In this document: positions 4,788 to 56,801 of the stretch, in pieces | Position numbering within the stretch: position 1 is the first letter of the stretch | Layout: each line of letters opens with the position of its first letter | Assembly: GCA_043750035.1 (NCBI GenBank) | Contig: JAYVCI010000246.1 | Span: 1-58,369, forward strand | Length of the DNA: 58,369 nucleotides | Direction: 5' to 3' | Origin: Chitinophagaceae bacterium | GTDB lineage: Bacteria; Bacteroidota; Bacteroidia; UKL13-3 | Notes under the pieces: model-generated | Databases searched by the model: none | The model's input: only the letters and a program-made list of their open reading frames with translations | What the model was told of the DNA's origin: nothing | Translations under genes and position numbers: made by a program

Positions 4788-4905
4788 GGTATCAAGTAGC
4801 TAGTATCAAGTATCAGGTAGGTACCCAATTCGCTAGGCGAATTGGGGAATTGTAGGCGAAAGCCGGTAGCAAGTACTTGATACCTGATACTAGCTACTTG
4901 ATACC
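4788..4905. repeat. Inverted pair of 7-nt-periodic arrays (GGTATCA AGTAGCT AGTATCA AGTATCA GGTAGGT ... GGTAGCA AGTACTT GATACCT GATACTA GCTACTT GATACC) enclosing a 10-bp GC-rich hairpin
   Basis: Read directly from the sequence. The inner hairpin is CCCAATTCGC-TAG-GCGAATTGGG at 4824..4846. The right arm overlaps the stop codon and last codons of trhO (4894). Confidence 0.85.
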
Positions 4906-5835
4906 GTTTTCCAATTCTTCTATGGGCTGCCTCACATAATATCCCGTTCCATTATAGGGCCGTTTGCGGGGATGTTCCATGCAGGTGGGGGAACAGGCTC
5001 CTTCCAATTTTTCGCCACAGTCTTCGCAGATGGGCAGGTGTTCGTTGCATTCCACATTGGCACAGTTCACCATGCGTAAGGTAGGCGTGTTGCAAATATG
5101 ACAATTGGATATAATAGTTGGATTTACCTCGTTTATTGGGACTGTAATACGTGCATCAAACACATAACATACGCCATCAAAATCTTTTCCGCCCGTTTCT
5201 TTTGCATATTTTATTATACCACCATGCAATTGATACACATCTTCAAACCCATGCTCCAGTAGCAGTGCAGAAGCTTTTTCGCATTTGATGCCGCCCGTGC
5301 AATAGGTAATTATTTTCTTATCTTTTAGACTTTCGAGTTCTTTTATTTTTTCAGGAAATTCACGAAAATTTTCCATATCAAGCGTGATGGAATTTTTGAA
5401 TTTGCCCACGCCGTGCTCATAGTTAGAACGTACATCCAGCACTACCACATCTTCGTGCTCTTTCATTTCCAAAAAGGTATTGCCATCAATATGCACCCCT
5501 GTTTTTTTGCGTGGATTGATAATCTTAGGGTCACGCAAGCCGCTGTGGACGATTTCTGATTTATAACGCACATGCAGGCGGTTGAAGGCATGGGCATCGC
5601 TTTCGTCAATTTTAAAATCTATTCCTTCAAACCTTTTGTCAGATTTTACATGGTCCATATACTGCTGGCACTGTTCGGGCGAACCACTGATAGAACCGTT
5701 CAAACCCTCGTCGGCAATGATGATGCGGCCACGTACACCCAGAGATTTGCAATACTTCAAATGCTCTTCGGCATACTTTTCTCCATCCTCGATGGGCGTA
5801 TAAAAATAGTATAAAAGAATATTATAGGGTGCCAT
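4894..5835 (-). CDS. trhO: Rhodanese-domain tRNA uridine(34) hydroxylase (UPF0176/YceA family)
   Basis: 313 aa with the N-terminal UPF0176 fold (YNILLYYFYTPIED), the rhodanese active-site loop CTGGIKCEKA and a C-terminal Cys-rich tail. Confidence 0.85.
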   Translation of the reverse strand: MAPYNILLYYFYTPIEDGEKYAEEHLKYCKSLGVRGRIIIADEGLNGSISGSPEQCQQYMDHVKSDKRFEGIDFKIDESDAHAFNRLHVRYKSEIVHSGLRDPKIINPRKKTGVHIDGNTFLEMKEHEDVVVLDVRSNYEHGVGKFKNSITLDMENFREFPEKIKELESLKDKKIITYCTGGIKCEKASALLLEHGFEDVYQLHGGIIKYAKETGGKDFDGVCYVFDARITVPINEVNPTIISNCHICNTPTLRMVNCANVECNEHLPICEDCGEKLEGACSPTCMEHPRKRPYNGTGYYVRQPIEELENGIK

Positions 5836-5904
5836 GTGTTATGTTTGCAAAATTAAAGGTTAAATTTGTGAAATAAAAAATTAGATTGGCTTAAATGATT
5901 CCGT

Positions 5905-7041
5905 ATGTTAGTTAACGCACTAAGAAAGAAAAAATGCCTTCCTATACTGATGCTTTGTTGGATGAGCATTAATGTGTGGTCAAATGCGTATTGCCAACAA
6001 ATTATAGAGGATGATTACATGGGTGATTTATATCAAGAAAGCTTTAAAGGTAAAGTAAAGGAAGCCGTTAGAGAAGAGTACAACACTAGTAGGTTGTTTA
6101 GGGAAAGATTAGTAGAAAAGCGAAAATACAAGTTTGACAGTGCGGGTCGATTGGTATATTATGAATTGAAATTTCCAGCTCAGCGAAATTCAAGCCTATC
6201 GATTTCCCGTATTGAATTTTATTATAATTATTTCGGGAAATTAGCTAAAGAAATTGGCTATAGTGATAAAGGGATATTAAATACTTCCGATACTTTCATT
6301 TATGATGAGAAACTAAGATTGATTGAAAAGCAATGCTATGGTAAGGATAGTATCTGTTATGAAAAAAATATCTATTTATATGATAGTATTGGGAATTTAG
6401 TAAAAGACCTTTGGTATGCTTATGATTATACACTTGAAAAGTACGAATTAACTTCTACTATAAGTTATATATATAATAAAAATAATAAGGTAATAGAATA
6501 TTTGGGGGAGCGTACAGGTGAATTAAAATCAAAATATAAAACAACAATTTTGTATGATGTAAATGATAGCATAATCGAGGAAAATACAGAGCAATCTAGC
6601 CTTGGAAATTTTAATAAAACTATTAAAGAATACAGTTATAATACAAAGTCTAAGCACAAAGTTTCTCAAACAACATATTATAGTCTTAATGGACTTATCA
6701 CTAATTATCAGAGAACTGAAACAGATAGTCTAGATAGAATATGCGAGGATAGTTTATTTTTTTATAAAAATTATGGAGCCAATTCAGATTATTTATATAG
6801 GTATAATGAATATAGCAAGGAGGGAATTATAACTAAATCGATTGCTCGAGGTTCAAATATTAAAAGAGGTTATGTAGTAGGAGAAATTTATTACAATAAA
6901 GACCATTATCCCATTAAGGTAGTGTGGCGAGATTCTGACTCAAAAATTGTGTACACGGCATATTTCGAATATGATAAATATGGAAACTGCATAAGAAGTA
7001 GTCACCCACTATATAAACGCAGCATCACTTACTATGAATAA
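5905..7041 (+). CDS. Hypothetical secreted repeat protein
   Basis: 378 aa with an N-terminal signal-like segment and degenerate YD-like repeats (FDSAGRLVYY, YDSIGNLV, YDKYGNCI). I recognise no family. Confidence 0.5.
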   Translation: MLVNALRKKKCLPILMLCWMSINVWSNAYCQQIIEDDYMGDLYQESFKGKVKEAVREEYNTSRLFRERLVEKRKYKFDSAGRLVYYELKFPAQRNSSLSISRIEFYYNYFGKLAKEIGYSDKGILNTSDTFIYDEKLRLIEKQCYGKDSICYEKNIYLYDSIGNLVKDLWYAYDYTLEKYELTSTISYIYNKNNKVIEYLGERTGELKSKYKTTILYDVNDSIIEENTEQSSLGNFNKTIKEYSYNTKSKHKVSQTTYYSLNGLITNYQRTETDSLDRICEDSLFFYKNYGANSDYLYRYNEYSKEGIITKSIARGSNIKRGYVVGEIYYNKDHYPIKVVWRDSDSKIVYTAYFEYDKYGNCIRSSHPLYKRSITYYE

Positions 7042-8377
7042 TCCACCACAATTCCCCGATTCTTTCATCAAACATCTCCAAACTATTCCGGGTGTTGAGC
7101 CCCACGAATTGTTTGAGGCTCTGCATAGCGTCCCGCCCACGAGTATAAGGCTTAACCCAAATAAACCCACGCAAAAATATGTACACGAAAAACCTGTAAC
7201 ATGGAGCCAACATGGATATTATTTAGCTGACCGTCCCGTGTTCACACTCGACCCTTTGCACCATGCGGGGGCATATTACGTGCAAGAAGCGGGCAGCATG
7301 TTTGTGGGAACAATCATCAAAGAATTACTAAAAACAACAAAAATAAAAACGGTCCTCGATTTGTGTGCGGCACCCGGAGGTAAAACAACCGATATGGCCT
7401 CGGTACTCGATAAAGATACCTTTATATTAGCGAACGAACCCATAAAAAACCGCACCAGTATATTATATGAAAATGTGGTGAAATGGGGCAATGACAATGT
7501 ATATATTTCGCAAAATGATCCGAAGAATTTTAATACCATCAAAGGTTTTTTCGATTTGGTACTAGCCGATGTTCCTTGCAGTGGTTCGGGCATGTTTCGT
7601 AAGGATCCGCAAAGCATTGAACATTGGTCGCTTGATAGTGTGGTGCATTGTAGCCTGAGGCAGCAAAGAATAATTGACGATGTGTGGCCTGCATTAAAAG
7701 CTGGTGGATATATGATATATGCTACTTGTAGTTATAGTATGGAAGAGGATGAACAAATAGTTGAAAATATATGCAAAAATCTGGGAGCAGAAATTGTAAA
7801 TATTCCTTTACCAGATTCAAATATATATAATAGTGGAAATGGTTATCGTTTTTATCCAAATAAATTAGATTCAGAAGGATTCTTTATTGCAGTTTTGAAG
7901 AAAACAGAAGAGTTGGTGGGTGATAGTAAAGTGCCCTACTACAATGCCAAAGCAGGTTTGCCCATGATTACCAAAGGTGATAGAGCAGCTTTAGATAATT
8001 ATATAATATTGCCCAAAGAAAATTTGTTCAATATGAAACACGATTTGTATTATATAAAACATCCTGCCGAATTGCAATTTTTAAGTCCGCATTTGAATAT
8101 ATATAAACGTGGCGTAAAACTTGGAAAAATCATCAGAAAAGAATTAATTGCTGACCATGAATTTTGTATGCTGCATAGTCACAATATACAATTTAATAAA
8201 ATAGAAATAGATAAAGAAACTGCCCTAGAATTTCTCCGCAAAAACCCTGTACACACTGATGGAGCCATAGGCTGGGCAATGCTTTGTTACGAAGGTTTGC
8301 CCTTAGGCTTGATAAAGAATATGGAAAATAGAAGCAATAATTATTATCCCACGGAATGGCGTATAAGGAATCTTTAA
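7034..8377 (+). CDS. SAM-dependent rRNA cytosine-C5 methyltransferase (NOL1/NOP2/Sun family, RsmF/RsmB-like)
   Basis: 447 aa with the SAM motif DLCAAPGGKT and the catalytic motif DVPCSGSGMFRKDP. A C-terminal extension resembles that of RsmF. The start overlaps the upstream gene by 8 nt. Confidence 0.8.
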   Translation: MNNPPQFPDSFIKHLQTIPGVEPHELFEALHSVPPTSIRLNPNKPTQKYVHEKPVTWSQHGYYLADRPVFTLDPLHHAGAYYVQEAGSMFVGTIIKELLKTTKIKTVLDLCAAPGGKTTDMASVLDKDTFILANEPIKNRTSILYENVVKWGNDNVYISQNDPKNFNTIKGFFDLVLADVPCSGSGMFRKDPQSIEHWSLDSVVHCSLRQQRIIDDVWPALKAGGYMIYATCSYSMEEDEQIVENICKNLGAEIVNIPLPDSNIYNSGNGYRFYPNKLDSEGFFIAVLKKTEELVGDSKVPYYNAKAGLPMITKGDRAALDNYIILPKENLFNMKHDLYYIKHPAELQFLSPHLNIYKRGVKLGKIIRKELIADHEFCMLHSHNIQFNKIEIDKETALEFLRKNPVHTDGAIGWAMLCYEGLPLGLIKNMENRSNNYYPTEWRIRNL

Positions 8378-8379
8378 TT

Positions 8380-8435
8380 TACGATGTACGACATACGATA
8401 TACGATGTACGACATACGATGTATGATTTACGATA
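8380..8435. repeat. Eight tandem heptamers: TACGATG TACGACA TACGATA TACGATG TACGACA TACGATG TATGATT TACGATA
   Basis: Read directly from the sequence. The array begins 3 nt after the rsmF-like stop codon. Confidence 0.9.
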
Positions 8436-8533
8436 ATATTTGGTGTTTCAAATTATATTATAATATATTACAATCAAAAATAAAGTTAAGATATATAATA
8501 ATGTTATTAGCGTAATAAATCTTGCTTTGGCTA

Positions 8534-8596
8534 TATCGTATGTCGTAAATATATTCGCGTTAGCCACATCGTAAATCGTACATCGTACATCGTAAA
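8534..8596. repeat. Complementary heptamer array (TATCGTA TGTCGTA ... TCGTAAA TCGTACA TCGTACA TCGTAAA)
   Basis: Read directly from the sequence. It is the inverted partner of 8380..8435 across a ~98-nt AT-rich spacer, and it ends 3 nt before the upp stop codon (8600). Confidence 0.9.
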
Positions 8597-8599
8597 TAA

Positions 8600-9244
8600 T
8601 TATAGCTTTTCCCCAAACGATAAATCCCCCGCATCACCCAATCCTGGAATTATATAGGAATCTTCGTTCAAACTGTCATCTACCGCGGCTATCCATAAAG
8701 TGGCATCAGGTAAATTACTTTCCACATATTTTATACCTTCGGGACTTGCAATTACACAGGCTAAGTGTACTTGAGCAGGCATGCCGTGCTCTAATAAAGA
8801 ATTACATCCTTCTACCAATGATTTTCCTGAGGCCAACATGGGATCACATATAATTAAAGTTTTACCAGTAAGTGAGGGACATGCCACATAGTCTAAATTA
8901 ATATCGAACGAATGGTCTTCTCTATGCTTGCCTCGTGCAGCACCAATAAATGCAGCTTCGGCATTGTCGAACACTTTTAAGAAACCTTGCATAAAGGGCA
9001 TTCCTGCCCGCAAAATGGTAGCTACTACAACATCGTTAGTAGGTATAAAAACTACAGCATCAGCAAGTGGCGTTATGATATATTTTTTTTCGTAATGAAA
9101 TTTTTTTGATATTTCATAGGCCATCAACATACCCAACCTTTCAATATTTGTTCTAAAACGCATACGGTCGTTTTGCACTGTTTTATCACGCAGTTGAGCT
9201 AAGTAAACATTGGCAATGGAGTTTTCGGTGTTGAGTATATGCAT
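8600..9244 (-). CDS. upp: Uracil phosphoribosyltransferase
   Basis: 214 aa with the PRPP-binding loop LIICDPMLASGKS and the C-terminal IIPGLGDAGD motif. Confidence 0.9.
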   Translation of the reverse strand: MHILNTENSIANVYLAQLRDKTVQNDRMRFRTNIERLGMLMAYEISKKFHYEKKYIITPLADAVVFIPTNDVVVATILRAGMPFMQGFLKVFDNAEAAFIGAARGKHREDHSFDINLDYVACPSLTGKTLIICDPMLASGKSLVEGCNSLLEHGMPAQVHLACVIASPEGIKYVESNLPDATLWIAAVDDSLNEDSYIIPGLGDAGDLSFGEKL

Positions 9245-9257
9245 GGTGTTGTAGGGG

Positions 9258-9332
9258 TAAGGAGTAAGGGATAAGGAGTAAGGAAGCTGACGCCGTATGG
9301 CACTTAATCCTTACTCCTTATCCCTTTAATCC
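9258..9332. repeat. Heptamer-array hairpin (TAAGGAG TAAGGGA TAAGGAG TAAGGAA / TTAATCC TTACTCC TTATCCC)
   Basis: A 17-bp perfect stem pairs 9268..9284 with 9308..9324. The loop contains the GC-rich word CGCCGTATGG (9291..9300). Confidence 0.85.
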
Positions 9333-9368
9333 TAAGTATTGGCTACTGTTCTGCAAATGTATGCAAAT

Positions 9369-10519: not shown

Positions 10520-11680
10520 TTATAATGTTCCTCTCCTTGCTTGTTCTGCTTCTATGCTTTCGAATAATGCTTGAAAATTTCCTTTACCAAACGACTTGGC
10601 TCCTTTGCGTTGTATAATCTCGAAGAATAAGGTGGGACGGTCTTCTACAGGTTTTGTAAATATCTGTAATAAATATCCTTCTTCATCTCGGTCAACCATT
10701 ATTCCCCATTGTTTTAGTTCTTCCAAATCTTCTTCTATAATTCCTACTCTATCTCTTACAGTATCATAATAACTTCCCGGAACATATAAAAATTCCACAC
10801 CACGTTTACGCATTTCAGAAATAGTAAAAATAATATCATCTGTCGCAACAGCTATATGTTGGCATCCTGGACCATTATAGAAATCCAAATATTCTTCCAC
10901 CTGCGATTTCTTTTTTCCTTTTGCGGGTTCGTTAATTGGGAATTTTATATAACCATTTCCATTACTCATTACTTTGCTCATCAATGCGGTGTACTCCGTT
11001 GATATATCTTTATCGTCGAAGGTTACGAGGTTTGCAAATCCCATTACATTTCCATAGAAATCTGCCCAGGTATTCATGGTTCCTAATTCTACATTTCCTA
11101 CCATGTGGTCAATATATTTTAAACCTGTTGGTATAGGATGATATTCCGTTTCCAGTTTTTCATAACCAGGAAAAAATATGCCCTGATAATTTTTGCGTTC
11201 AATAAATATATGTACGGTATCTCCATACGTTTTTATCCCGCTACGGTGAATAGTGCCATCATCACTTATGATAGTATTCGGTTGTATATAAGGTTCTGCA
11301 CCGCGTGATACAGTTTGCTCAAAAGCATCGTAGGCATCATCCACAGTTAATGCGATTACCTTTACGCCATCGCCATGTTTAGCAAGGTGTTTGCCGATAT
11401 CACTTTCACTATCAAAAGGTGTAGTTAACACCAAACGAATTTTACCTTGTTGTAATACATAGGATGTTCTGTCACGCATACCGGTTTCCAATCCAGCATA
11501 AGCCAAATCTTGAAAACCAAAGGCTGTTTTATAATAGTGAGCAGCTTGTTTTGCATTGCCTACATACAGCTCTACATAGTCAGTGCCTTTGATGGGTAAA
11601 AAATCTTGTGCCTTGTCGAATACTTTTTTAGTTTCGGAATATTGATAGTTTTTTACTGCCGTTAAATCTAGGGTTTCCAT
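10520..11680 (-). CDS. hppD: 4-hydroxyphenylpyruvate dioxygenase
   Basis: 386 aa with two VOC-fold halves and the C-terminal motif FFEIIQRKG...FGKGNFQALFESIE. Confidence 0.9.
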   Translation of the reverse strand: METLDLTAVKNYQYSETKKVFDKAQDFLPIKGTDYVELYVGNAKQAAHYYKTAFGFQDLAYAGLETGMRDRTSYVLQQGKIRLVLTTPFDSESDIGKHLAKHGDGVKVIALTVDDAYDAFEQTVSRGAEPYIQPNTIISDDGTIHRSGIKTYGDTVHIFIERKNYQGIFFPGYEKLETEYHPIPTGLKYIDHMVGNVELGTMNTWADFYGNVMGFANLVTFDDKDISTEYTALMSKVMSNGNGYIKFPINEPAKGKKKSQVEEYLDFYNGPGCQHIAVATDDIIFTISEMRKRGVEFLYVPGSYYDTVRDRVGIIEEDLEELKQWGIMVDRDEEGYLLQIFTKPVEDRPTLFFEIIQRKGAKSFGKGNFQALFESIEAEQARRGTL

Positions 11681-11683
11681 GAT

Positions 11684-11718
11684 GTTGAGTGAAAAGTGAA
11701 AAGTGGAAAGTGGAAAGT
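11684..11718. repeat. Five tandem heptamers: GTTGAGT GAAAAGT GAAAAGT GGAAAGT GGAAAGT
   Basis: Read directly from the sequence, in the 49-nt hmgA-hppD gap. Confidence 0.85.
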
Positions 11719-11729
11719 TGTTCGCTTTC

Positions 11730-12917
11730 TTATATGTTTAATAATTCTTTTTCTTGGGGATTTTCAATCCATGATTGATAGTAGTTGGGTATTTCGATTT
11801 TATAGGCTTCAGTAGTTGTCTTTACGGGCTTAAAAGGATCTATCATCACAGCCAGTTCTTGCGTTTCTTTCTTGCCTATACTGCGTTCAATGGCACCTGG
11901 ATGTGGACCATGTGGGATACCACCCGGGTGTAGAGTAATCTGTCCTTTTTGTATATTATTGCGGCTCATAAAATCTCCATCCACATAATATAATAGTTCA
12001 TCGCTGTCGATATTACTGTGATGATAAGGAGCAGGAATTGCATCGGGATGATAATCATATAAACGTGGAACGAAAGAACATACTACAAAATTATTTGCCT
12101 GAAACTGTTGGTGTATGGGCGGTGGCATGTGTATACGACCTGTGATCGGTTCGAAATTAAATATAGAAATAGCATAGGGATAACTGCAACCATCATAGCC
12201 CACCAAATCAAATGGATGGGTACCATATATATAAGGATATATCAAGCCACTTTTTTTAATATTGATTTTGAAATCACCTTTTTCATCATGTGTTTCCATA
12301 TCTACAGGCAACTTGAAATCACGCTCGCAGAAAGGAGAATTTTCCATAAACTGTCCATACTGATTCCTGTATCTGGCTGGCGTTTCAATAGGACTGAAGG
12401 ATTCAATAAATAATAGTTTATTATCTTCGCTATCAAAATCTAATTGATAAACTGTACCACGTGGTATTATCACATAATCACCATATTCAAAAGGAATTTT
12501 CCCATACATCGTTTTTAGTTTTCCAGAACCACGGTGTATAAAAATTATTTCATCGGCATCTGCATTTTTGAAAAAATAATCCGTCATACTATTTGTGGGA
12601 GAAGCCAAACCTATATGCAAATCATCATTTACAAAAAGAACTTTTCTGCTTTGTATATAATCATCTTCAGGTTCTACCTCAAATCCCAAATAACTCCGAG
12701 CTTGCAAATTATCTTCTATATGTATTTCGGGTTTGATACTATAAGGTCGTCCATGTTCTTTCACCATAGTGGGTGGATATAAATGATATAATAAAGAGGA
12801 GATTCCAGAGAATCCTTCAGTACCGAACAATTCCTCATGATACAGGCTACCATTGGGCTGACGAAACACTATGTGACGTTTGGCTGGGATTAACCCTACT
12901 TGGCGATAAAGTGGCAT
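11730..12917 (-). CDS. hmgA: Homogentisate 1,2-dioxygenase
   Basis: Full-length HmgA-like cupin protein (HPGGIPHGPHPG, NFEPITGRIHMPPP). I moved the start to Met17 of the tracked ORF (MPLYRQVG...) because the predicted promoter (TAATTTTG at 12942..12949, minus strand) lies inside the longer ORF. Confidence 0.9.
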   Translation of the reverse strand: MPLYRQVGLIPAKRHIVFRQPNGSLYHEELFGTEGFSGISSLLYHLYPPTMVKEHGRPYSIKPEIHIEDNLQARSYLGFEVEPEDDYIQSRKVLFVNDDLHIGLASPTNSMTDYFFKNADADEIIFIHRGSGKLKTMYGKIPFEYGDYVIIPRGTVYQLDFDSEDNKLLFIESFSPIETPARYRNQYGQFMENSPFCERDFKLPVDMETHDEKGDFKINIKKSGLIYPYIYGTHPFDLVGYDGCSYPYAISIFNFEPITGRIHMPPPIHQQFQANNFVVCSFVPRLYDYHPDAIPAPYHHSNIDSDELLYYVDGDFMSRNNIQKGQITLHPGGIPHGPHPGAIERSIGKKETQELAVMIDPFKPVKTTTEAYKIEIPNYYQSWIENPQEKELLNI

Positions 12918-12973
12918 AATATGATGTATAAATTGATGGTGCAAAATTATTTGAAAATACACCAATCACTTTA

Positions 12974-14950: not shown

Positions 14951-15718
14951 TTATAAATCTTTCCGATTGAATTTCTTGAGGGAAATGCCTAAGGGTATAA
15001 TTGCCCAGCAACATAAAATAAGTAAGGATATATTAAACCCAAATGTTGTCCCAAAAAAATCTTTGAACACGGCCCCAGTATAGCCCATCAATGCAGATAC
15101 ATCCAGTCGTAATAATATAATAATACGGCTCAGGTCAATAGGATTTAACGTACTTATTACCATCATCGGTTTTTCTAAGGGATAATCAGCAAACTGAAAA
15201 AGGAGCAGCAATACCAACCCATCAAATATGATGGCAAAATATAACCATAATAATATTGCTACACCAATACCCTTGGCTTTGTCACGAGTGGTAACTGCCG
15301 CAAGCATAGCTATGGAAACAAAAATAACCGAAAGTAATATCCCCATAAGTGTTATAATAATTCCGGTAACTGTGGGTTCGAAAAACAGAATTGGGATACC
15401 TGCACCCAATAAAAAGGCCAGGGTTAATGAAATAGATAATCCAGAGAATAAACTCAACCATATATTTTTTCTTTTCAAAGGTTGGCTCAACAGCAACTCT
15501 ATAAACTCAGAACTATTATATATATAAATGGTAGAAAAAATAATAGATATAAGTGGTACAATAAACAAAATTAGATTGAGCATACTCAGCAATCCCTTGG
15601 CATTATTGTCTTCCAAGCTAAACACACTGAACGAAACAATAAACAAAAAGAAGGTATAAGCCAATACAATCTTGTTTCGCAAAATATCTATTACTACATA
15701 TTTAATTACTTTTGTCAT
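14951..15718 (-). CDS. nosY: Nitrous-oxide reductase maturation ABC permease
   Basis: 255-aa, six-TM ABC-2-type permease. Its start overlaps the nosF stop by 4 nt. Confidence 0.8.
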   Translation of the reverse strand: MTKVIKYVVIDILRNKIVLAYTFFLFIVSFSVFSLEDNNAKGLLSMLNLILFIVPLISIIFSTIYIYNSSEFIELLLSQPLKRKNIWLSLFSGLSISLTLAFLLGAGIPILFFEPTVTGIIITLMGILLSVIFVSIAMLAAVTTRDKAKGIGVAILLWLYFAIIFDGLVLLLLFQFADYPLEKPMMVISTLNPIDLSRIIILLRLDVSALMGYTGAVFKDFFGTTFGFNISLLILCCWAIIPLGISLKKFNRKDL

Positions 15719-16440
15719 AGCTTGCTTTGCATCATAATGTGGGCAATCGCTTTTGACAATTTCTCTTCGCCCGTTTCTTTTCTCAGTTCGTCAATTGATT
15801 TATGGAATTTTAATTTCCCATCTTGCATATATACTATTTGTGTAACAATATCATCCAAGTCGCTTAAAATATGTGAGGTGATAAATACCAATTTGCCTTT
15901 TTGTTTTTCTTTGATTATCTTTTCTTTCAAAATTTCAGAAGCCAATGGATCTAAGCCAGCCGTGGGTTCATCGAGTATAAGTACATCGGCATTGAACAAA
16001 AATGCCAACGATGCACTTACTTTTTGCATAGTGCCGCCTGATAATGTTCGCATGCGTTTGCTCAGCATTGTATTCAGTTCAAATTGTTGAATGAGTTCTT
16101 CATCCAATTGTGTTTTTTCGTCTCCACGTTTTGGGATACGAATATCTTTCATCATGCCAATTATTTGCCCTATAGTCATATTGTCGGGGTAGCGGCCTAT
16201 CTGTGGCATATAGCCAATTTGTGAACGGTATTTCCAATCTTTGGCAATATTTTTCTTATTAAATAATATGATACCCTCATCTGGAACCACCATCCCCAAT
16301 ATACTTTTTATCAAGGTAGTTTTGCCGCAGCCATTAGGCCCTATCAAAGCAATGCACTCACCGCTATCGCAGGTTAAGCTAACCTGATCAAGAGCCTTGA
16401 GTTTGCCAAATCGTTTTGATATATTTTGTACAGCAATCAC
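15715..16440 (-). CDS. nosF: Nitrous-oxide reductase maturation ABC ATPase
   Basis: 241 aa with Walker A GPNGCGKTT, signature LSGGTMQKV and Walker B LILDEP. It sits in the nosD-F-Y arrangement. Confidence 0.85.
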   Translation of the reverse strand: MIAVQNISKRFGKLKALDQVSLTCDSGECIALIGPNGCGKTTLIKSILGMVVPDEGIILFNKKNIAKDWKYRSQIGYMPQIGRYPDNMTIGQIIGMMKDIRIPKRGDEKTQLDEELIQQFELNTMLSKRMRTLSGGTMQKVSASLAFLFNADVLILDEPTAGLDPLASEILKEKIIKEKQKGKLVFITSHILSDLDDIVTQIVYMQDGKLKFHKSIDELRKETGEEKLSKAIAHIMMQSKL

Positions 16441-17678
16441 AGGTGAATGGGTTTCATAAACGGGATTTCATCTTTCAAATTTTCGGGAGTAAGCGATGGT
16501 AATACCTTTTCCGTTTTATCCAAAAGTGCAACTATAATACTTCGGAATAAAATCATGGCAGGTGGATTTTTTTCAATAATCATGGAATACATACTGATAG
16601 GGCGGTAGGGCACATCCCCAATTTTATCTTTATTAATATCATAACCTTCGTATTTATCCCAATAATTACCGTTAAAAGTATTCAATACCAAAGTGCCATT
16701 TGTGCCTATATCAAATGTATTTCCAATAAAATTATTTTGAGTAACTACAACATCCATACAACTGGCCTGTATTTTTATAGCCCACCCATTGCTGTTAAAA
16801 ACATTTTTTCTCATTAGAACTCTGTTTATACCTTCCATAAATACGCCACTGGTGTTTTTATCAAAATGATTCCCTTCTATATAACTATCCGATATTTCTT
16901 TCAATAATAAACCATAAGCAGCATCTCCCCAATTTTGCTTAAAGGTATTGTTGTACATTTTTACACCGTGGGTAAACATTACAGCCACACCCGCTCCATT
17001 GTTTTCAAATACATTGGTAATATATGCATCGTTATGCGAAAACATAAAATGTAAGCCATAGCGGATATTATTTTCAGATATATTTCGCCATATAATAGCG
17101 TTGGTCACAAATTCGAAATATATTCCATCACGATGACCTTGAATGGTGTTTGCAATAATCTGCATGGTATCACATTTCCAGCAATGAATTCCATTTCCTA
17201 TTTGCTGTTCCTGTTTTCCATAGGAAATGAGTTTGTTGTTTTTTATAATGCAATTTTGGGCATACTGTGCATAGATTCCAAAAAATGTATCATCAAGTAT
17301 ATTGTTGCAAATAATTACATGGTGTGCATCATATATCTTAATACCAGCAGGATCTTCCAGTGTTGCATAACCCGAATGCTGCAACTTAAATCCCTCAACT
17401 TTTGCATAGTTTGCTTTGATAGATATTATTTCATACTTGCCCTCGCCATCAAGAATTGGATAGTTTTTCCCAATCAGTGTAATAGATTTATCTATAATTA
17501 AGTTTTTCTCGAAATAGGTGCCAGGGTTTACAATAACAGTGTCGCCCGAGTCTGATTTGTGTATAGCTTCCTTAATGGAATGAATTGCTAATTGTTTTCC
17601 TACTTGATAAGTTTTTGCATTAAGTATAGTAAAAGAACTACTTACAAAAATAATATATATGATAACCGAACGCAACAT
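16437..17678 (-). CDS. nosD: Periplasmic copper-binding beta-helix protein
   Basis: 413 aa with a signal peptide and repeated parallel beta-helix (CASH) turns (NNI..N...GI). It lies between nosL and nosF. Confidence 0.85.
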   Translation of the reverse strand: MLRSVIIYIIFVSSSFTILNAKTYQVGKQLAIHSIKEAIHKSDSGDTVIVNPGTYFEKNLIIDKSITLIGKNYPILDGEGKYEIISIKANYAKVEGFKLQHSGYATLEDPAGIKIYDAHHVIICNNILDDTFFGIYAQYAQNCIIKNNKLISYGKQEQQIGNGIHCWKCDTMQIIANTIQGHRDGIYFEFVTNAIIWRNISENNIRYGLHFMFSHNDAYITNVFENNGAGVAVMFTHGVKMYNNTFKQNWGDAAYGLLLKEISDSYIEGNHFDKNTSGVFMEGINRVLMRKNVFNSNGWAIKIQASCMDVVVTQNNFIGNTFDIGTNGTLVLNTFNGNYWDKYEGYDINKDKIGDVPYRPISMYSMIIEKNPPAMILFRSIIVALLDKTEKVLPSLTPENLKDEIPFMKPIHL

Positions 17679-17681
17679 ATT

Positions 17682-18704
17682 TTACTTAATTAGTTGGTCC
17701 CAGAATACTTCTTCTCCTCCTAAATTGTTTTTATAATAAATCATGCTGTCTTTCTCCTTATATGCTGCCACATTACCTTCCATTGGGCTTCTCAGGTCTT
17801 CACTTCTCATAAGGAAACATTGTTTCTGGTTAACCAATTCGTGTTTACCACAAAAATCTGATATATATATATCTTTGATATCTTTGGAATCTATAGCTCC
17901 AGATTTGATATCAGAAATTAAACAATGGGCTTCGTCATATTTGTGTATTTTCCCTTTTTTAGTGATTGCTTCAGTTCCAAATCTGACATCGCTGATGGCC
18001 ATTTTACAGAACTGGCATTTGTCAACTCCTACTTTTATAGGATCAGGTGAGACATTGCAACTTGGTAAGGTTAATACAATAAAAAGTAATAAAACTGTTG
18101 CTATATTTTTTTTAGTGGTCTTCATTTTCTTCATTTTTCTATAATCCATTATTATGCAAAACAATAACATTACACCCACACTTACAAATATCCAGCCCCC
18201 AATATGGGGTACAGAATAAGCCCCAAAATTCAATAATTGCTTGAATCCGATTAAAGGTGGCTGGTAGGTCATATCTGGCACTATGATAGCAGCTTCCGGG
18301 TTTAAGTTATGTCCGTAATCGTATTCCCATTTCCAAAAATCTGCCATTGCTATTATACCAAAAACTAAGAACATTACAAACAAAATATTCATCAATTTTC
18401 TGTTGCGAAGTATTGCAACTATTATAAATAAACCGGCAAAAGAACTAATAATATAGGGTAGGATGGTAAACTCGATAAAATCTTCTGTATGCAAAGTTTT
18501 CATGCCTATATAATGATTCAACCCATTGATGATATCTACATTGCCACCAAGTTTATCAGTATATATTAATAACCGCAACCCTTCTGGATATTGGGGTGCA
18601 TCTAAATCTATCATCCACATAGGTACATATAATACTACTATTAATGCTACCCCACATAAGGCCAATACAATTCTAATCCAGTTTTGAAATGGATGCTTTT
18701 TCAT
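17682..18704 (-). CDS. nosL: nosB-like membrane domain and NosL copper chaperone lipoprotein in one reading frame
   Basis: 340 aa. Residues 1-190 are polytopic membrane. Residues 191-340 start with a complete lipoprotein signal (MKKMKTTKKNIATVLLLFIVLTLPSC) followed by NosL motifs (DKCQFCKMAISDVRFG, YDEAHC). The internal ATG is at 18132..18134. Confidence 0.7.
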   Translation of the reverse strand: MKKHPFQNWIRIVLALCGVALIVVLYVPMWMIDLDAPQYPEGLRLLIYTDKLGGNVDIINGLNHYIGMKTLHTEDFIEFTILPYIISSFAGLFIIVAILRNRKLMNILFVMFLVFGIIAMADFWKWEYDYGHNLNPEAAIIVPDMTYQPPLIGFKQLLNFGAYSVPHIGGWIFVSVGVMLLFCIIMDYRKMKKMKTTKKNIATVLLLFIVLTLPSCNVSPDPIKVGVDKCQFCKMAISDVRFGTEAITKKGKIHKYDEAHCLISDIKSGAIDSKDIKDIYISDFCGKHELVNQKQCFLMRSEDLRSPMEGNVAAYKEKDSMIYYKNNLGGEEVFWDQLIK

Positions 18705-18728
18705 AGGAGTTAATTTTTGTGATTATTA

Positions 18729-18782
18729 TAAAAAAAGATTGAGTTGTAATGGTATTATATGATACCAATTACAACTCAATCT
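18729..18782 (-). terminator. Strong hairpin plus T-run immediately after nosZ (intra-operon terminator or attenuator)
   Basis: On the minus strand: AGATTGAGTTGTAATTGGTAT-CATATA-ATACCATTACAACTCAATCT, followed by TTTTTTAT. Confidence 0.6.
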
Positions 18783-18797
18783 ATAAAGTATATATAT

Positions 18798-33960: not shown

Positions 33961-34014
33961 AATGTGTAGCTATAAAAATTCCTCAAAATTGATGCTACTT
34001 TAAAATTAATTTTA

Positions 34015-34026
34015 TGATTTATATCA
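34015..34026. promoter_or_regulatory. Crp/Fnr-type box TGATTTATATCA upstream of nadA
   Basis: Identical 12-mer to the box at 21501. The centre is 33.5 nt from the TTTG of CAATTTTG (minus strand, 33984..33991). Confidence 0.5.
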
Positions 34027-34187
34027 GTTTTTTGTTGAGTTATATCATTTTTATTCGCCATATCATATTTGAGTTTCGCATTTCTGCATAATCATTAAGA
34101 GAATCCTATATTATAGCATTGATTTGGTTACTGTTTTCCTAAAAAAAAATCATTTAAAAATTTCCAAAGCCCATTTTTATATTTTAA

Positions 34188-36552: not shown

Positions 36553-36630
36553 ATCCCGATAATTATCGGGATTAGCGAAACGTTCCGCCGCGGCGGATGT
36601 GAGTACGATACAGTCAGTCTCCAGACTGAC
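36553..36630. repeat. Cluster of three GC-rich palindromes between convergent genes
   Basis: ATCCCGATAATTATCGGGAT (36553..36572), TCCGCCGCGGCGGA (36584..36597) and GTCAGTCT-CC-AGACTGAC (36613..36630). Confidence 0.85.
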
Positions 36631-39484: not shown

Positions 39485-39628
39485 TGTTTTAATTTTGAGC
39501 AAATTATGCAATTTATCACAAGATAAGCAAGTAAATGTTTGATATACATGAAGTACACATATTTCATCTTTTAGTTGCATCCTGCAAAAAAAATATTCAA
39601 ATTATCCACAGAAATGATCTGGCGTCAG

Positions 39629-39663
39629 CCATTAACCATTAACCACTAAAAATTAACCATTAA
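39629..39663. repeat. Five tandem heptamers: CCATTAA CCATTAA CCACTAA AAATTAA CCATTAA
   Basis: Read directly from the sequence. The last unit overlaps the GT2 stop codon (39660..39662). Confidence 0.85.
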
Positions 39664-44442: not shown

Positions 44443-44443
44443 A

Positions 44444-50575: not shown

Positions 50576-51037
50576 ATGTCAACACCATTCACTATTCTAA
50601 ATCCCAGTTACCGCGAACTCATTGTTGAAAAGCTAGTGGGCCAGCGGTTTATGCACCATATAGGTTTTCAGCTCGACCGAATAGAACCGGGATTGGTAAC
50701 AGCCGGTATGCCAATAGAAGCACATATATTGCAGCAAACAAATTTTGTGCATGGCGGTGCTACCGCTACACTTGCCGATTTGGTAATGGGTTTTGCAGCA
50801 TATACCCTGGTGGATGTGGGTCAGGTGGTTCTAACAGCCGACTTAAGAATATCCTACTTAAATCCAGGACAGGGAGATAAAATAACAGCCAAAGGTTTTG
50901 TGATTAAAGCAGGACGTAAAATGATTTTCTGCGAGGGAGAAGTTTATTGCTACAAAGATGGAATTGAAACTATGATAGCCAAAGCATCGGCCACCATGAG
51001 TGTGGTGAATTTGAGCGAGATAGGTAGCAGGGTTTAG
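50576..51037 (+). CDS. PaaI/YbgC-type hotdog thioesterase (TIGR00369-like)
   Basis: 153 aa with the motif NFVHGGATATLADLVMG. Confidence 0.8.
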   Translation: MSTPFTILNPSYRELIVEKLVGQRFMHHIGFQLDRIEPGLVTAGMPIEAHILQQTNFVHGGATATLADLVMGFAAYTLVDVGQVVLTADLRISYLNPGQGDKITAKGFVIKAGRKMIFCEGEVYCYKDGIETMIAKASATMSVVNLSEIGSRV

Positions 51038-51077
51038 GATTCGATAGCTATCAGGATTTAGGATTCGGGGGAATTGG
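51033..51077. repeat. Direct repeat TTTAGGATTCG (x2, 24 nt apart) around the palindrome GATAGCTATC, followed by GGGGAATTG
   Basis: Read directly from the sequence. It overlaps the stop codon at 51035..51037. Confidence 0.8.
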
Positions 51078-53401: not shown

Positions 53402-53482
53402 GTTATATTTTATATATTGGGTTTTGTTTCAAAATTGCTGGGACTAGAGACTTTAATATATGACTGCCATCAACTACACCCG

Positions 53483-55010: not shown

Positions 55011-55059
55011 TTATTGGGTATTTGTCTCATCCCTCTACTTCTTCTAAAGAATAGAAAGG

Positions 55060-55917: not shown

Positions 55918-55939
55918 GGTGACAAAGATAATATCTAGG

Positions 55940-55981
55940 GTTAAGTTTTAAGTGATAAGTTAATTCCGATAGCTATCGGAA
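55940..55981. repeat. Heptamers GTTAAGT TTTAAGT GATAAGT followed by the perfect 18-nt palindrome TTCCGATAGCTATCGGAA
   Basis: Read directly from the sequence. The palindrome is at 55964..55981. Confidence 0.85.
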
Positions 55982-56069
55982 CTAAAAGTATCTATCAAAT
56001 TGCATTTTAGGGTATTCGTTATTATTACCTTAGCACAATATTAGATTATATATACTTATTGATTGGGCA

Positions 56070-56747
56070 TTAAAACTTATCACCCCACTGGAAATAATTT
56101 CCTGTGAGCCGTTTTTGGGTACAATCGCTGCCGGCAGAAAACATATAGCCAAGGCCAATATTGACCCTGCCCATGCCATCTGTTTTTTTATTAATATTAA
56201 CCCCGTCGAGGTATTTGTTGGTATGTATATAATAGGTATAATTAGAACGGAAAATAAACCTCCCAAATGCCATTTTGAAACCTGCACCTGTTCCAAACCA
56301 AAAGTTATAACCCCCATTCGACTTTTGTATATCGGGATTTATGGTTATCCAATTATCAGATACACTTACATTTTGTACACCTGCACTTAATATAATAACT
56401 GGTGTAAAACCACTGCCGTTCATAGCGGGATGAAATTTAATTAAATGGTATTCATCAATCAAAGAAAACTCCTGATATTTAGTACTAAAATTTGCACCAG
56501 CGGGCATTGAATTATTGTTTTGATTTTGCCCACTGAGCATGCCCAAACCAATGCTTGCACCAAAAGTATTCTGATGGGTAGTATAATACCCACCAATGCT
56601 GTGCTGCCAGCCTTTAAATTTGGATGAAGTATTATATTCCCCTTTATATAAATTTAGAGAATAGGCATAGTTCATTTCAAAAAGTTGTGCTTTCGAATGC
56701 GTAATTAATAAACATTGAAAAACGAATATATATATTATTTTTTTCAT
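56070..56747 (-). CDS. Outer-membrane beta-barrel protein (hypothetical)
   Basis: 225 aa with the signal peptide ...THSKAQ, an alternating beta-strand pattern and a C-terminal Phe. Confidence 0.6.
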   Translation of the reverse strand: MKKIIYIFVFQCLLITHSKAQLFEMNYAYSLNLYKGEYNTSSKFKGWQHSIGGYYTTHQNTFGASIGLGMLSGQNQNNNSMPAGANFSTKYQEFSLIDEYHLIKFHPAMNGSGFTPVIILSAGVQNVSVSDNWITINPDIQKSNGGYNFWFGTGAGFKMAFGRFIFRSNYTYYIHTNKYLDGVNINKKTDGMGRVNIGLGYMFSAGSDCTQKRLTGNYFQWGDKF

Positions 56748-56766
56748 CCTATTGTACTTGATTTTT

Positions 56767-56801
56767 TACTTGATACTTGATACTCCCTACTTGATACTAT
56801 A
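56767..56801. repeat. Five tandem heptamers: TACTTGA TACTTGA TACTCCC TACTTGA TACTATA
   Basis: Read directly from the sequence. The array abuts the stop codon at 56802 and uses the same word as the array arm at 4865..4905. Confidence 0.85.

What the first reader, a model, noticed from the sequence alone, without database searches (positions are those of the whole stretch)
4788..56801. Family of 7-nt-periodic intergenic arrays: a different word at each locus, same period, same placement at gene 3' ends
At least seven loci carry arrays in strict 7-nt register, each with its own word:
- GGTATCA/AGTATCA (4788..4822) with a complementary arm (4865..4905).
- TACGATG (8380..8435 / 8534..8596).
- TAAGGAG/TAAGGGA (9258..9285) with its complement (9304..9332; 17-bp perfect stem).
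- GAAAAGT/GGAAAGT (11684..11718).
- CCATTAA (39629..39663).
- nTTAAGT (55940..55960).
- TACTTGA (56767..56801), the same word as the 4865..4905 arm.
Each array lies 0-36 nt from a stop codon. Two overlap the stop codon (trhO at 4894, GT2 at 39660) and one abuts it (Mo-oxidoreductase gene at 56802). I saw no T-runs after them.
Different words with one period and one placement argue against the spread of a single mobile repeat. Two explanations seem more likely: a generative process such as slippage or templated addition at gene ends, or selection for a 7-nt register, for example a periodic RNA- or DNA-binding protein or 3'-end protection.
Basis: seen in the sequence. Interest (0 to 1): 0.65.

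Follow-up and report, generated by a model that had tools for sequence, protein, structure and literature searches.

The report
Intergenic seven-base microsatellites in a Bacteroidota genome
The window really does carry a set of short tandem repeats with a 7-base unit squeezed against gene ends, but this is the already described class of bacterial heptanucleotide microsatellites (known from cyanobacteria, Xanthomonas, Beggiatoa and a few Bacteroidetes), here seen in an uncultured Bacteroidota genome, and their function is still unknown.

Summary
Period-7 arrays are far above chance: 6 strong lag-7 clusters in the window against 0.0 in shuffles, and other periods near 0. The 55940-55960 array is not above chance.

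- Most flanking genes are on the minus strand, so five arrays lie 3-19 nt upstream of a start codon as well as near a stop.
- Three loci are inverted pairs of arrays that fold into very stable hairpins (-41 to -70 kcal/mol). The single arrays are unstructured.
- Words are not private to a locus. TACTTGA, CCATTAA and TACGATG recur at other loci or in relatives, and metagenome depth over one array is more than 100 times the genome's depth.

In about 1 Mb of related Bacteroidota contigs, period 7 again dominates. The arrays are intergenic, sit against gene ends and differ in copy number between relatives. They also follow a strand rule: G-rich on the sense strand after stops, C-rich before starts.

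All of this matches published heptameric repeats in Xanthomonas, Nostoc and Beggiatoaceae. The most likely origin is slippage-driven microsatellites filtered by selection on transcripts. The hairpin forms probably act as intercistronic RNA structures rather than canonical terminators. This is a new member of a known kind, of modest interest.

The parts
4874..4905 (-). Heptamer array, read GGTATCA/AGTATCA on the sense (minus) strand. It is the 5' arm of a hairpin and overlaps the trhO stop codon (4894-4896).
   Evidence: TRF 4.4 copies. Arm is 32 nt and 94% complementary to 4788-4819. ORF 4894..5835 is TrhO.
4820..4873 (-). Interior of the hairpin, holding two small stem-loops: 4824-4846 (CCCAATTCGC-TAG-GCGAATTGGG) and 4855-4864 (GGC-GAAA-GCC).
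   Evidence: Fold of 4780-4912: -67.5 kcal/mol, z -12.0, 0 of 200 shuffles as stable.
4788..4819 (-). Heptamer array, read TACTTGA/TACCTGA on the sense strand. It is the 3' arm of the hairpin and ends 19 nt upstream of the ATG (4769) of a LOG/TIGR00730-family gene.
8377..8435 (+). TACGATG/TACGACA array of about 7.9 units, with a 21-nt super-period. It begins right after the stop (8375-8377) of the rsmF-like gene.
   Evidence: TRF rows at period 7, 14 and 21. Inverted-repeat pairs I3-I6.
8532..8597 (-). Inverted copies of the same array, read TACGATG on the upp sense strand and interrupted by TGGCTAACGC. They begin 2-3 nt after the upp stop (8600-8602). With 8377-8435 they form a long hairpin between convergent genes.
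   Evidence: Fold -70.6 kcal/mol, z -6.5. The orthologous array in L004 has 3 units plus TGGCTTACGCC.
9303..9333 (-). Array read AAGGGAT/AAGGAGT/AAGGATT on the sense strand. It is the 5' arm of a hairpin and lies 35 nt after the stop (9369) of a fatty-acid desaturase gene.
   Evidence: 19 nt perfect. Fold -41.5 kcal/mol, z -7.8.
9253..9284 (-). Array read CCTTACT/CCTTATC on the sense strand. It is the 3' arm of the hairpin and ends 8 nt upstream of the upp ATG (9244). The loop (9285-9302) carries GCTGACGCC.
11684..11718 (-). Single array, read ACTTTCC/ACTTTTC on the sense strand. It lies 11 nt after the stop of an HgmA-like gene (11730) and 3 nt before the ATG of the 4-hydroxyphenylpyruvate dioxygenase gene (11680). 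It is unstructured.
   Evidence: TRF 4.4 copies, 95% matches. Fold z -0.47. k-mer depth over the array is 940-1635x against 4.6-7.7x for the flanks.
39629..39663 (-). Single array, read TTAATGG on the sense strand, overlapping the stop (39660-39662) of a GT2 glycosyltransferase gene. It is followed by the cap TGGCTGACGCCAGAT (39617-39631).
   Evidence: A second contig at the same depth shares the cap plus array.
56767..56801 (-). Single array, read AGTATCA on the sense strand. This is the same word and the same orientation as the after-stop arm at 4874-4905. It abuts the stop (56802) of an Oxidored_molyb gene and lies 19 nt before the ATG at 56747. It is unusually unstructured.
   Evidence: Fold -0.3 kcal/mol; 195 of 200 shuffles fold at least as well.
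55940..55960 (-). Claimed nTTAAGT array. It is too short and imperfect to separate from chance. The adjacent perfect palindrome TTCCGATAGCTATCGGAA (55964-55981) is the real feature at this site.
   Evidence: Absent from TRF at score 30. The palindrome family is enriched.

Best explanation
These are intergenic heptanucleotide microsatellites. They belong to the class described as STRR in cyanobacteria, LSSR(5-11) by Mrazek, GGGAATC repeats in Xanthomonas and TAACTGA repeats in Beggiatoaceae and some Bacteroidetes.

Shown: the arrays exist, period 7 is specifically over-represented, and they are confined to intergenic DNA. They sit against start and stop codons, differ by whole units between relatives, and obey a strand rule relative to the adjacent gene end.

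Inferred:
- They arise, grow and shrink by slipped-strand mispairing in 7-nt steps. The preference for 7 would be a property of the replication machinery, as Mrazek proposed.
- They persist only in the transcribed edges of intergenic spacers, and only in the orientation that the transcript tolerates: G-rich and C-poor RNA after a stop, C-rich and G-poor unstructured RNA before a start.
- Where the same word lies in both orientations in one spacer, the transcript folds into a 19-32 bp near-perfect duplex. Such a stem has no U-tract. In two cases it ends 8-19 nt before the next ATG, so it cannot be a canonical terminator. It most likely acts as an intercistronic RNA structure, either a barrier to 3' exonucleases or a target for RNase III.
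- Complementarity between the arms is kept by selection for pairing or by hairpin-templated correction.
For: Period-7 excess:
- for the window.
- 51 arrays of at least 3.5 copies at period 7, against 12-16 at periods 5, 6 and 8.
- 22 intergenic lag-7 clusters against 0.0 in shuffles, and 1 in 6.6 times as much coding DNA.

Intergenic location: 37 of 42 arrays are intergenic, although 89% of the DNA lies in ORFs.

Position against gene ends: the relative position in the spacer has median 0.145, KS p = 3e-7. This is replicated in 37 unrelated IMG/VR loci with median 0.075, p = 1e-8.

Strand rule:
- After stops, G>C in 15 of 18 arrays and in 26 of 26. Array-free flanks after stops have G about equal to C.
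- Before starts, C>G in 12 of 15.
- The polarity flips within 450 nt in L059 and within 4 kb in L054. It therefore follows the gene, not the direction of replication.

Slippage: 7 against 5 units, and different arm unit counts, in L054/L066 at about 90% nucleotide identity. Four against 3 units after upp in the window and L004.

Hairpins: -67.5, -41.5 and -70.6 kcal/mol. Arm-to-arm identity (91-100%) exceeds unit-to-unit identity within an arm (72-84%).

No T-run terminators at the arrays, although relatives have canonical T-run terminators after the HPPD gene.

Literature. PMC4692102 reports heptamers that are 89-93% intergenic, have a mode of 4 units, lie close to or overlapping the stop codon, show the same coding/non-coding strand rule, form 70-75 inverted pairs, and vary in length between species. 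PMC4679880 covers TAACTGA and 'other heptamer direct repeats' in Bacteroidetes, and reports the Mrazek slippage proposal.
Against: - Neutral slippage predicts a broad spread of copy numbers. Eight of the nine window arrays are 30-35 nt (4.3-5.0 units). Xanthomonas also has a mode of 4 units.
- The after-stop polarity is nearly absolute, which is more than a passive filter would obviously give.
- The TACGATG array and its TGGCTNACGC cap are kept at the upp 3' end between relatives with 90% protein identity, while the rest of the spacer no longer aligns.
- The same word recurs at several loci of one genome or contig (window; L136, L149, L150). Slippage in place does not explain this.
- No transcript data exist for this organism, so transcription of the arrays and any RNA role are inferred.
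- Gene ends come from a crude ORF caller. Arrays that contain ATG or stop triplets can shift a called end.
Confidence: 0.55

Rival explanations
1. The arrays are selected cis-sites for a single-strand nucleic-acid binding protein with a footprint of about 7 nt. A cold-shock-domain protein binding one molecule per heptamer, or ribosomal protein S1, are candidates. The protein would coat the 5' leader or 3' trailer and tune translation initiation or RNA stability. The period would be fixed by the protein and the word would be free.
For: - One period with many words, and no shared core among 57 words.
- Arrays before starts are pyrimidine-rich, G-poor and unstructured (ACTTTCC, TCTCTAT, TAACTTT, AACTTTT, CTTTCGC) and lie 2-19 nt from the ATG.
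- These words resemble the T/C-rich heptamers bound by B. subtilis CspB, one protein per heptamer, as summarised in PMC4679880.
- The tight mode of about 4.4 units in the window.
- Strict strand polarity.
- Bacteroidota do not rely on Shine-Dalgarno pairing and need unstructured leaders (my own knowledge).
Against: - No binding protein has been identified or tested.
- The G-rich after-stop arrays are not explained by a pyrimidine-binding protein.
- Arrays are gained and lost quickly between close relatives. The HPPD upstream site is empty in L007 and L008 at 87% identity.
- Period 8 arrays also occur: 8 intergenic clusters.
- G-poor 5' flanks are the background state in these genomes.
Confidence: 0.2
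2. The arrays are spread by a mobile or templated process: a MITE/REP-like element, or gene conversion between loci. Slippage then only modifies the copies.
For: - The same word occurs at several loci of one genome or contig. The AAGTATC class is at two window loci. GGAAAGT is at three sites in L136, and AAGTATC is at three to four sites in L150.
- The 15-nt cap TGGCT(G/T)ACGCCAGAT follows arrays of different words in two genomes. These are its only two matches in 1.07 Mb.
- A second contig at the genome's own depth shares the cap plus the CCATTAA array.
- k-mer depth over the arrays is 100-350 times genome depth.
Against: - Other contigs share only the array and diverge exactly at its edges. 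No conserved internal sequence, terminal structure or target duplication is visible.
- No transposase lies nearby.
- A permuted control word is as frequent in IMG/VR as the real word: 16 against 15 contigs. Cross-genome recurrence therefore needs no transfer.
- Xanthomonas heptamers were not associated with mobile elements.
Confidence: 0.12
3. The inverted array pairs are transcription terminators, as the reader's '3'-end' idea implies. The repeats are simply how this lineage builds long terminator stems.
For: - Very stable stems directly after stop codons, including one between convergent genes.
- U-tract-poor terminators have been suggested for some Bacteroidota (my own knowledge).
Against: - No T-run follows any arm (and the sequence).
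- Two of the three stems end 8 and 19 nt before the next co-directional ATG. That leaves no room for a promoter, so the downstream gene must be read through the stem.
- The single arrays are unstructured.
- Relatives use ordinary hairpin-plus-T-run terminators.
Confidence: 0.08

Closest known systems
Heptameric G-rich repeats of Xanthomonas (GGGAATC) and Nostoc/Anabaena (GGGGA(C/T)T), Rehm et al. 2015, PMC4692102
   Same: - 7-nt unit with a mode of about 4 units.
- About 90% intergenic.
- Within 0-50 nt of the stop codon or overlapping it.
- G-rich strand is the coding strand downstream of ORFs and the non-coding strand upstream of them.
- Frequent inverted pairs able to form stem-loops.
- Length varies between related species while the type (single or inverted pair) is kept.
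   Different: - One dominant word per genome there; at least six words in 58 kb here.
- The words here are AT-rich and lack G3 tracts, so they cannot form G-quadruplexes. The G4 explanation offered for the Xanthomonas repeats therefore cannot account for the shared placement and polarity.
- Different phylum.
TAACTGA direct repeats of marine Beggiatoaceae, some Cyanobacteria and five Bacteroidetes, MacGregor 2015, PMC4679880
   Same: - Heptamer arrays of 2-6 or more units, a few nt upstream of start codons in 'forward' orientation and reversed when after a stop.
- Reported in Bacteroidetes, where 'other heptamer direct repeats' share the same spacers.
- A relative fetched here (L016) has 9 units of NNAACTG ending 2 nt before the HPPD ATG. 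L078 has the reverse word directly after the stop.
   Different: - That study followed a single word.
- The window itself has no TAACTGA array.
- Hairpin pairs were rare there (one indirect repeat in the BOGUAY genome).
Cyanobacterial STRR (short tandemly repeated repetitive sequences) and Mrazek's LSSR(5-11)
   Same: - Several different heptamer words per genome, dispersed at many intergenic loci.
- Heptamers are the most abundant long simple-sequence-repeat class.
- Polymerase slippage is proposed as the cause (as summarised in PMC4679880, and PMC4692102; STRR details are from my own knowledge).
   Different: STRR words are GC-richer and were defined in heterocystous cyanobacteria. No gene-end polarity was described for them.
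REP/BIME elements and MITEs
   Same: Intergenic, hairpin-forming, multi-copy, and often between co-directional or convergent genes. REP stems stabilise upstream mRNA (my own knowledge).
   Different: REPs and MITEs are conserved along their whole length and are not internally periodic. Here only the array is shared between loci.
Intrinsic (Rho-independent) terminators
   Same: A stable stem-loop just after a stop codon.
   Different: There is no U-tract, the stems are 19-32 bp rather than 5-12 bp, and two of them sit directly in front of the next ATG.

Membership tests
Intergenic heptanucleotide SSRs (STRR / LSSR5-11 / GGGAATC / TAACTGA class) | Head-to-tail copies of a 7-nt unit, usually 2-10 or more units, imperfect copies allowed | tested here: met
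   TRF finds 9 arrays of 4.3-7.9 units at 72-95% matches.
Intergenic heptanucleotide SSRs (STRR / LSSR5-11 / GGGAATC / TAACTGA class) | Unit length 7 over-represented against chance and against other unit lengths | tested here: met
   Six clusters against 0.0 in the window. 22 against 0.0 in intergenic DNA of 81 loci, with periods 4-6 and 10-11 at 0.
Intergenic heptanucleotide SSRs (STRR / LSSR5-11 / GGGAATC / TAACTGA class) | Predominantly intergenic | tested here: met
   37 of 42 arrays are intergenic with 89% of the DNA in ORFs. One coding against 22 intergenic clusters.
Intergenic heptanucleotide SSRs (STRR / LSSR5-11 / GGGAATC / TAACTGA class) | Placed next to start or stop codons with an orientation that depends on the gene end | tested here: met
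   Edge test p = 3e-7 and 1e-8. Polarity is 15 of 18 and 26 of 26 after stops, and 12 of 15 before starts.
Intergenic heptanucleotide SSRs (STRR / LSSR5-11 / GGGAATC / TAACTGA class) | Unit number varies between related genomes at the same site | tested here: met
   L054 against L066. Window against L004 after upp.
Intergenic heptanucleotide SSRs (STRR / LSSR5-11 / GGGAATC / TAACTGA class) | The same word dispersed at many loci of one genome | tested here: inconclusive
   TACTTGA is at two window loci. Other contigs share arrays, and depth is 100-350 times genome depth. The complete genome is not available, and some of that depth comes from other organisms.
G-quadruplex-forming heptamer repeats (Rehm et al.) | At least 4 units, each with a run of 3 or more G | tested here: not met
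   The window words (TACGATG, CCATTAA, TACTTGA, GAAAAGT, TAAGGAG) have no G3 run in successive units.
Intrinsic terminator | G+C-rich stem-loop followed directly by a U-tract on the transcribed strand | tested here: not met
   No terminator-like site on the gene strand at any array. The only hit at an array (11705-11730) is on the non-gene strand.
REP/BIME or MITE | Copies alignable along the whole element; terminal inverted repeats with target-site duplication; cognate transposase (RAYT or IS) | tested here: not met
   Contigs sharing an array diverge at its inner and outer edges. No transposase was looked for outside the window.
Phase-variation contingency SSRs | Units of 1-5 nt inside ORFs or between promoter elements of surface or host-interaction genes | tested here: not met
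   The unit is 7 nt. The neighbouring genes are housekeeping (trhO, upp, rsmF-like, HPPD, LOG family).
Known RNA families (Rfam 15) | Match at or above the gathering score | tested here: not met
   No matches in the window, and no tRNA or tmRNA.

The most novel reading that the evidence does not exclude
The rule tying array position and strand to gene ends now holds for words that cannot form G-quadruplexes, in a third phylum. Heptamer arrays might therefore be a widespread, selected mark of gene ends that is read on single-stranded RNA. A protein with a 7-nt footprint (a cold-shock-domain type) would coat C/U-rich arrays in 5' leaders. The complementary G-rich arrays in 3' trailers would either exclude it or pair with leader arrays, in cis as intercistronic hairpins or in trans between mRNAs that share a word. 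That would give a word-coded post-transcriptional network.
Probability: 0.12. Interest if true: 0.75.

Novelty: new member of a known kind. Interest (0 to 1): 0.3.

Why it matters
Heptanucleotide repeats are the most common long microsatellite class in many bacteria. Two questions remain open: why the unit is 7 nt, and why the arrays sit against gene ends.

This case adds three things:
- The pattern is widespread in uncultured Bacteroidota, where period 7 dominates across about 1 Mb of related contigs.
- The published placement and strand-polarity rule holds for AT-rich words that cannot form G-quadruplexes. This weakens the G4 explanation and points to a more general cause at the level of the transcript or of transcription.
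- A practical caution: these arrays break short-read assemblies (Logan contigs end at them) and inflate k-mer depth.

It does not reveal a new kind of genetic element.

Tried and rejected
1. A shared core across words. GG or GGA on the G-rich strand occurs in 21 and 12 of 57 words, against 20.5 and 11.5 in permutations. No trinucleotide is enriched after multiple testing; AGT is 18 against 12.8, p = 0.06. Rejected.

2. A stop barrier in all three frames, from a 7-nt unit that contains a stop triplet. Five of 32 after-stop arrays stop all frames within 21 nt, against 14.5 in the null. Arrays with no stop number 12, against 12.2. Rejected.

3. A special vocabulary shared across taxa. GGAAAGT x3 is in 15 IMG/VR contigs of 30-64% GC, but a permuted control word (GAGATGA x3) is in 16. 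TACTTGA x3 is in 6 and its control in 0. This is no evidence for transfer. It shows that purine-rich heptamer arrays are common in general.

4. The cap motif TGGCTGACGCCAGAT as a dispersed element. All 48 IMG/VR matches lack nearby periodicity and are consistent with chance.

5. Known RNA families: none found.

6. Transcript evidence: no RNA run is available.

7. Strain-level copy-number variation from metagenome contigs. Four runs carry the identical sequence. Two runs with a diverged relative are too fragmentary at 2-4x depth.

8. Extending the genome. 9.2 kb beyond the right end of the window (L172) holds no array. The left-end look-up returned sequence that lies within the window apart from about 40 nt.

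9. Replication-strand explanation of the polarity. Rejected because the polarity flips within one spacer or within a few kb, following the gene ends.

Full report
WHAT IS THERE. The window is 35% G+C and comes from an uncultured Bacteroidota. It encodes proteins with T9SS sorting tails. The nearest labelled relatives are a 'Flavobacteriaceae bacterium' metagenome-assembled genome (MAG; upp 90% identical) and a 'Bacteroidetes bacterium' MAG. The same sequence is present, base for base, in an independent ENA assembly and in Logan contigs of four sediment metagenomes, so the arrays are not an assembly artefact.

Tandem Repeats Finder lists period-7 arrays at 4789-4819, 4874-4904, 8380-8434, 8568-8597, 9253-9284, 9303-9333, 11688-11718, 39629-39663 and 56767-56798. 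Every array in the window with 4 or more copies has period 7, 14 or 21. A lag-match test gives 6 clusters at lag 7 against 0.0 in dinucleotide shuffles, and 0-1 at every lag from 4 to 13. The real feature at that site is the palindrome TTCCGATAGCTATCGGAA.

ANATOMY. The arrays come in two forms.

(a) Inverted pairs:
- 4788-4819 with 4874-4905: 32 nt, 94% complementary.
- 8377-8435 with 8532-8597.
- 9253-9284 with 9303-9333: 19 nt perfect.

As RNA these fold at -67.5, -70.6 and -41.5 kcal/mol, with z-scores of -12, -6.5 and -7.8, and about equally well on either strand. The arms match each other better (91-100%) than the units within an arm match one another (72-84%). Irregular units, such as GTAGCTA in the first pair, are mirrored in the partner arm.

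(b) Single arrays at 11684-11718, 39629-39663 and 56767-56801. These are unstructured. For 56745-56810, 195 of 200 shuffles fold at least as well.

Nearly all neighbouring genes are on the minus strand. Read in the sense of those genes, each spacer runs stop codon, array(s), start codon. The arrays at 4788, 9253, 11684 and 56767 end 19, 8, 3 and 19 nt before the next ATG. No arm is followed by a T-run. Two of the three stems end so close to the next ATG that the downstream gene must be transcribed through them.

BEYOND THE WINDOW. I fetched 80 contigs from metagenomes that encode the neighbouring 4-hydroxyphenylpyruvate dioxygenase (HPPD) at 87-67% identity, about 1 Mb in all.
- Period 7 is again the dominant tandem-repeat class. 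There are 51 arrays of at least 3.5 copies, against 12-16 for periods 5, 6 and 8.
- In intergenic DNA there are 22 lag-7 clusters against 0.0 in shuffles. In 6.6 times as much coding DNA there is 1. Period 8 comes second with 8 clusters.
- Of 42 arrays that are not low-complexity, 37 are intergenic, although 89% of the DNA lies in ORFs.
- The distribution is patchy. Some contigs carry 3-4 arrays, and about 50 of the 80 carry none.

GENE-END RULE. Within their spacers the arrays sit against a gene end. The relative position has median 0.145 where 0.5 is expected, KS p = 3e-7. Restricted to spacers with at least 60 nt of slack, p = 4e-5.

The arrays also have a polarity.
- Next to a stop codon, the sense strand of that gene is G>C in 15 of 18 arrays.
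- Next to a start codon, it is C>G in 12 of 15.
- Most of the exceptions are arrays in very short spacers that touch both ends.
- Array-free flanks show only a mild version of this. Before starts C is 15.5% and G is 11.2%. After stops G is about equal to C.
- The polarity flips within 450 nt in L059 and within 4 kb in L054. It therefore follows the gene and not the replication fork.

The same words obey the rule wherever they recur. CCATTAA lies before a start in L004, and TTAATGG lies after a stop in the window. GGAAAGT lies after stops, and ACTTTCC lies before starts.

I replicated both results in 37 unrelated IMG/VR contigs of 26-64% G+C, retrieved only by word.
- The edge test gave median 0.075, p = 1e-8.
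- After stops, G>C in 26 of 26 arrays.
- Before starts the result was mixed: 9 against 12. Seven related contigs are an artefact in which my ORF caller picked an ATG inside an AGAGATG array. Removing them leaves 9 against 5.

One caveat applies to all of this. Gene ends come from a crude longest-ORF caller, and stop triplets contain no C, so part of the tendency to abut the stop may be by construction. GGAAAGT contains no stop in any frame and still follows the rule in 6 of 6 cases.

DYNAMICS AND DISPERSAL. Orthologous arrays differ by whole units.
- AAAGGNN has 7 units against 5 after the stop upstream of the HPPD gene in L054 and L066, which are about 90% identical in nucleotide sequence. 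Their GTTCATG/CCATGAA inverted pair is kept, but with different unit counts.
- TACGATG has 4 units in the window and 3 in L004 after upp. In both, TGGCT(A/T)ACGC follows, while the rest of the spacer no longer aligns.
- Arrays are also gained and lost. The HPPD upstream site is empty in the closest relatives, L007 and L008.

Words are not private to a locus.
- The AAGTATC class occurs at two window loci and in L054.
- CCATTAA sits upstream of upp in L004, where the window has TAAGGAG.
- In the source metagenomes, k-mer depth over 11688-11718 is 940-1635x against 4.6-7.7x for the flanks. Many contigs share an array and diverge exactly at its edges. Only the array is shared, not a longer element.
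- One exception was noticed. The 15-nt cap TGGCT(G/T)ACGCCAGAT follows arrays of different words in the window (39617-39631) and in L004. These are its only two matches in 1.07 Mb.

WHAT IT IS NOT.
- Not a canonical terminator. There is no U-tract, and relatives do use hairpin-plus-T-run terminators.
- Not a known RNA family.
- Not a MITE or REP (see above).
- Not a G-quadruplex repeat, because successive units have no G3 runs.
- Not organised around a shared sub-motif.
- Not a three-frame stop barrier.

Recurrence of a word in very different genomes needs no horizontal transfer. A permuted control word is just as common in IMG/VR as the real word.

COMPARISON WITH THE LITERATURE. Rehm et al. 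2015 (PMC4692102) describe GGGAATC repeats in Xanthomonas and GGGGA(C/T)T repeats in Nostoc, with these properties:
- about 186 per genome;
- a mode of 4 units;
- 89-93% intergenic;
- within 0-50 nt of the stop codon or overlapping it;
- G-rich strand coding downstream of ORFs and non-coding upstream;
- 70-75 inverted pairs;
- length varying between species while the type is preserved;
- mostly transcribed.

MacGregor 2015 (PMC4679880) describes TAACTGA repeats a few nucleotides upstream of start codons in Beggiatoaceae, Cyanobacteria and five Bacteroidetes. That paper notes 'other heptamer direct repeats' in the same Bacteroidetes spacers. It also summarises Mrazek's finding that heptamers are the commonest long simple-sequence repeats, possibly because about 7 nt interact with the polymerase.

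Two things are new here. One is the lineage, with its rich set of words. The other is that the placement and polarity rule holds for AT-rich words that cannot form G-quadruplexes, so G4 formation cannot be the general explanation.

MECHANISM. My best account (confidence 0.55) has three parts.
- The arrays are slippage-driven microsatellites whose 7-nt step is set by the replication machinery.
- They are retained only in the transcribed edges of spacers, in the orientation that the transcript tolerates.
- Inverted pairs form intercistronic duplexes of 19-32 bp, long enough for RNase III or to block 3' exonucleases. This last point is an inference from general knowledge and was not tested.

Several observations sit uneasily with a purely neutral origin: the tight mode near 4.4 units, the near-absolute after-stop polarity, the conserved array plus cap at upp, and word recurrence within a genome. 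They keep alive a functional reading, a periodic single-strand binder such as a cold-shock-domain protein (0.2), and a dispersal reading (0.12). No RNA data exist for this organism, so every RNA-level step is inference.

VERDICT. The novelty claim is not, because this is a new member of a known kind. Interest is 0.3.

Noticed in passing
window 39617-39631 (minus strand) and L004 2291-2305: The 15-nt motif TGGCT(G/T)ACGCCAGAT forms a small GGC-NNNN-GCC hairpin. It directly follows heptamer arrays of different words (TTAATGG and TACGATG), after stop codons of different genes, in two genomes. These are its only two matches in 1.07 Mb. GCTGACGCC also sits in the loop of the 9253-9333 hairpin, and contigs from other loci show TACGATG arrays joined by TTGCTGACGCCT.
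   Followed up: partly
window 55966-55979, 36556-36569, 36734-36747, 51041-51054; L018 9929-9942; L019 3213-3226: A second family of short palindromes, CCGATAGCTATCGG. It has 4 matches with up to 2 mismatches in the window, against 0.02 expected. Most are intergenic and lie just after stop codons. The same 14-mer lies upstream of the HPPD gene in a relative with 81% identity.
   Followed up: partly
window 14951-20786 (minus strand): A nitrous-oxide reductase accessory cluster: a nos_propeller protein (18798-20786), NosD (16437-17678), an ABC ATPase (15715-16440) and an ABC2 membrane protein (14951-15718). The Pfam labels come from the identical ENA contig.
   Followed up: no
window 10520-12965 (minus strand): Tyrosine catabolism pair: an HgmA_N-domain protein with only a weak homogentisate dioxygenase match, followed by 4-hydroxyphenylpyruvate dioxygenase. 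The two are separated only by the ACTTTCC array.
   Followed up: no
window 51019-51067; 34010-34052; 15518-15565; 32681-32728: Longer-period tandem duplications of 24, 21, 25 and 24 nt, each about 2 copies. The 24-nt unit at 51019 itself contains two GGATTNN heptamers and one copy of the CGATAGCTATC palindrome.
   Followed up: no
window 8380, 4813/4819, 4876/4880, 9257, 11717/11718 (ends of Logan contigs): Short-read assemblies of four metagenomes break exactly at the heptamer arrays. k-mer depth there is 10-350 times the genome's depth. Such arrays therefore fragment MAGs and could mislead binning by coverage.
   Followed up: partly
L016 9930-9992; L078 7849-7870; L045 1254-1279: Relatives carry words with an AACTG core. 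L016 has nine units of NNAACTG ending 2 nt before the HPPD ATG. L078 has the reverse word, ACAGTTT, abutting the stop. L045 has TAACTCA. This is the published TAACTGA family, in further Bacteroidota.
   Followed up: partly
L136 (IMGVR_UViG_3300028549_004239), L150 (IMGVR_UViG_3300048999_000098), L149: Contigs classed as viral carry 6-10 heptamer arrays each, within 9-15 kb. The same word occurs at several sites, and inverted pairs are present. Either phage genomes also accumulate these arrays, or these contigs are cellular.
   Followed up: no
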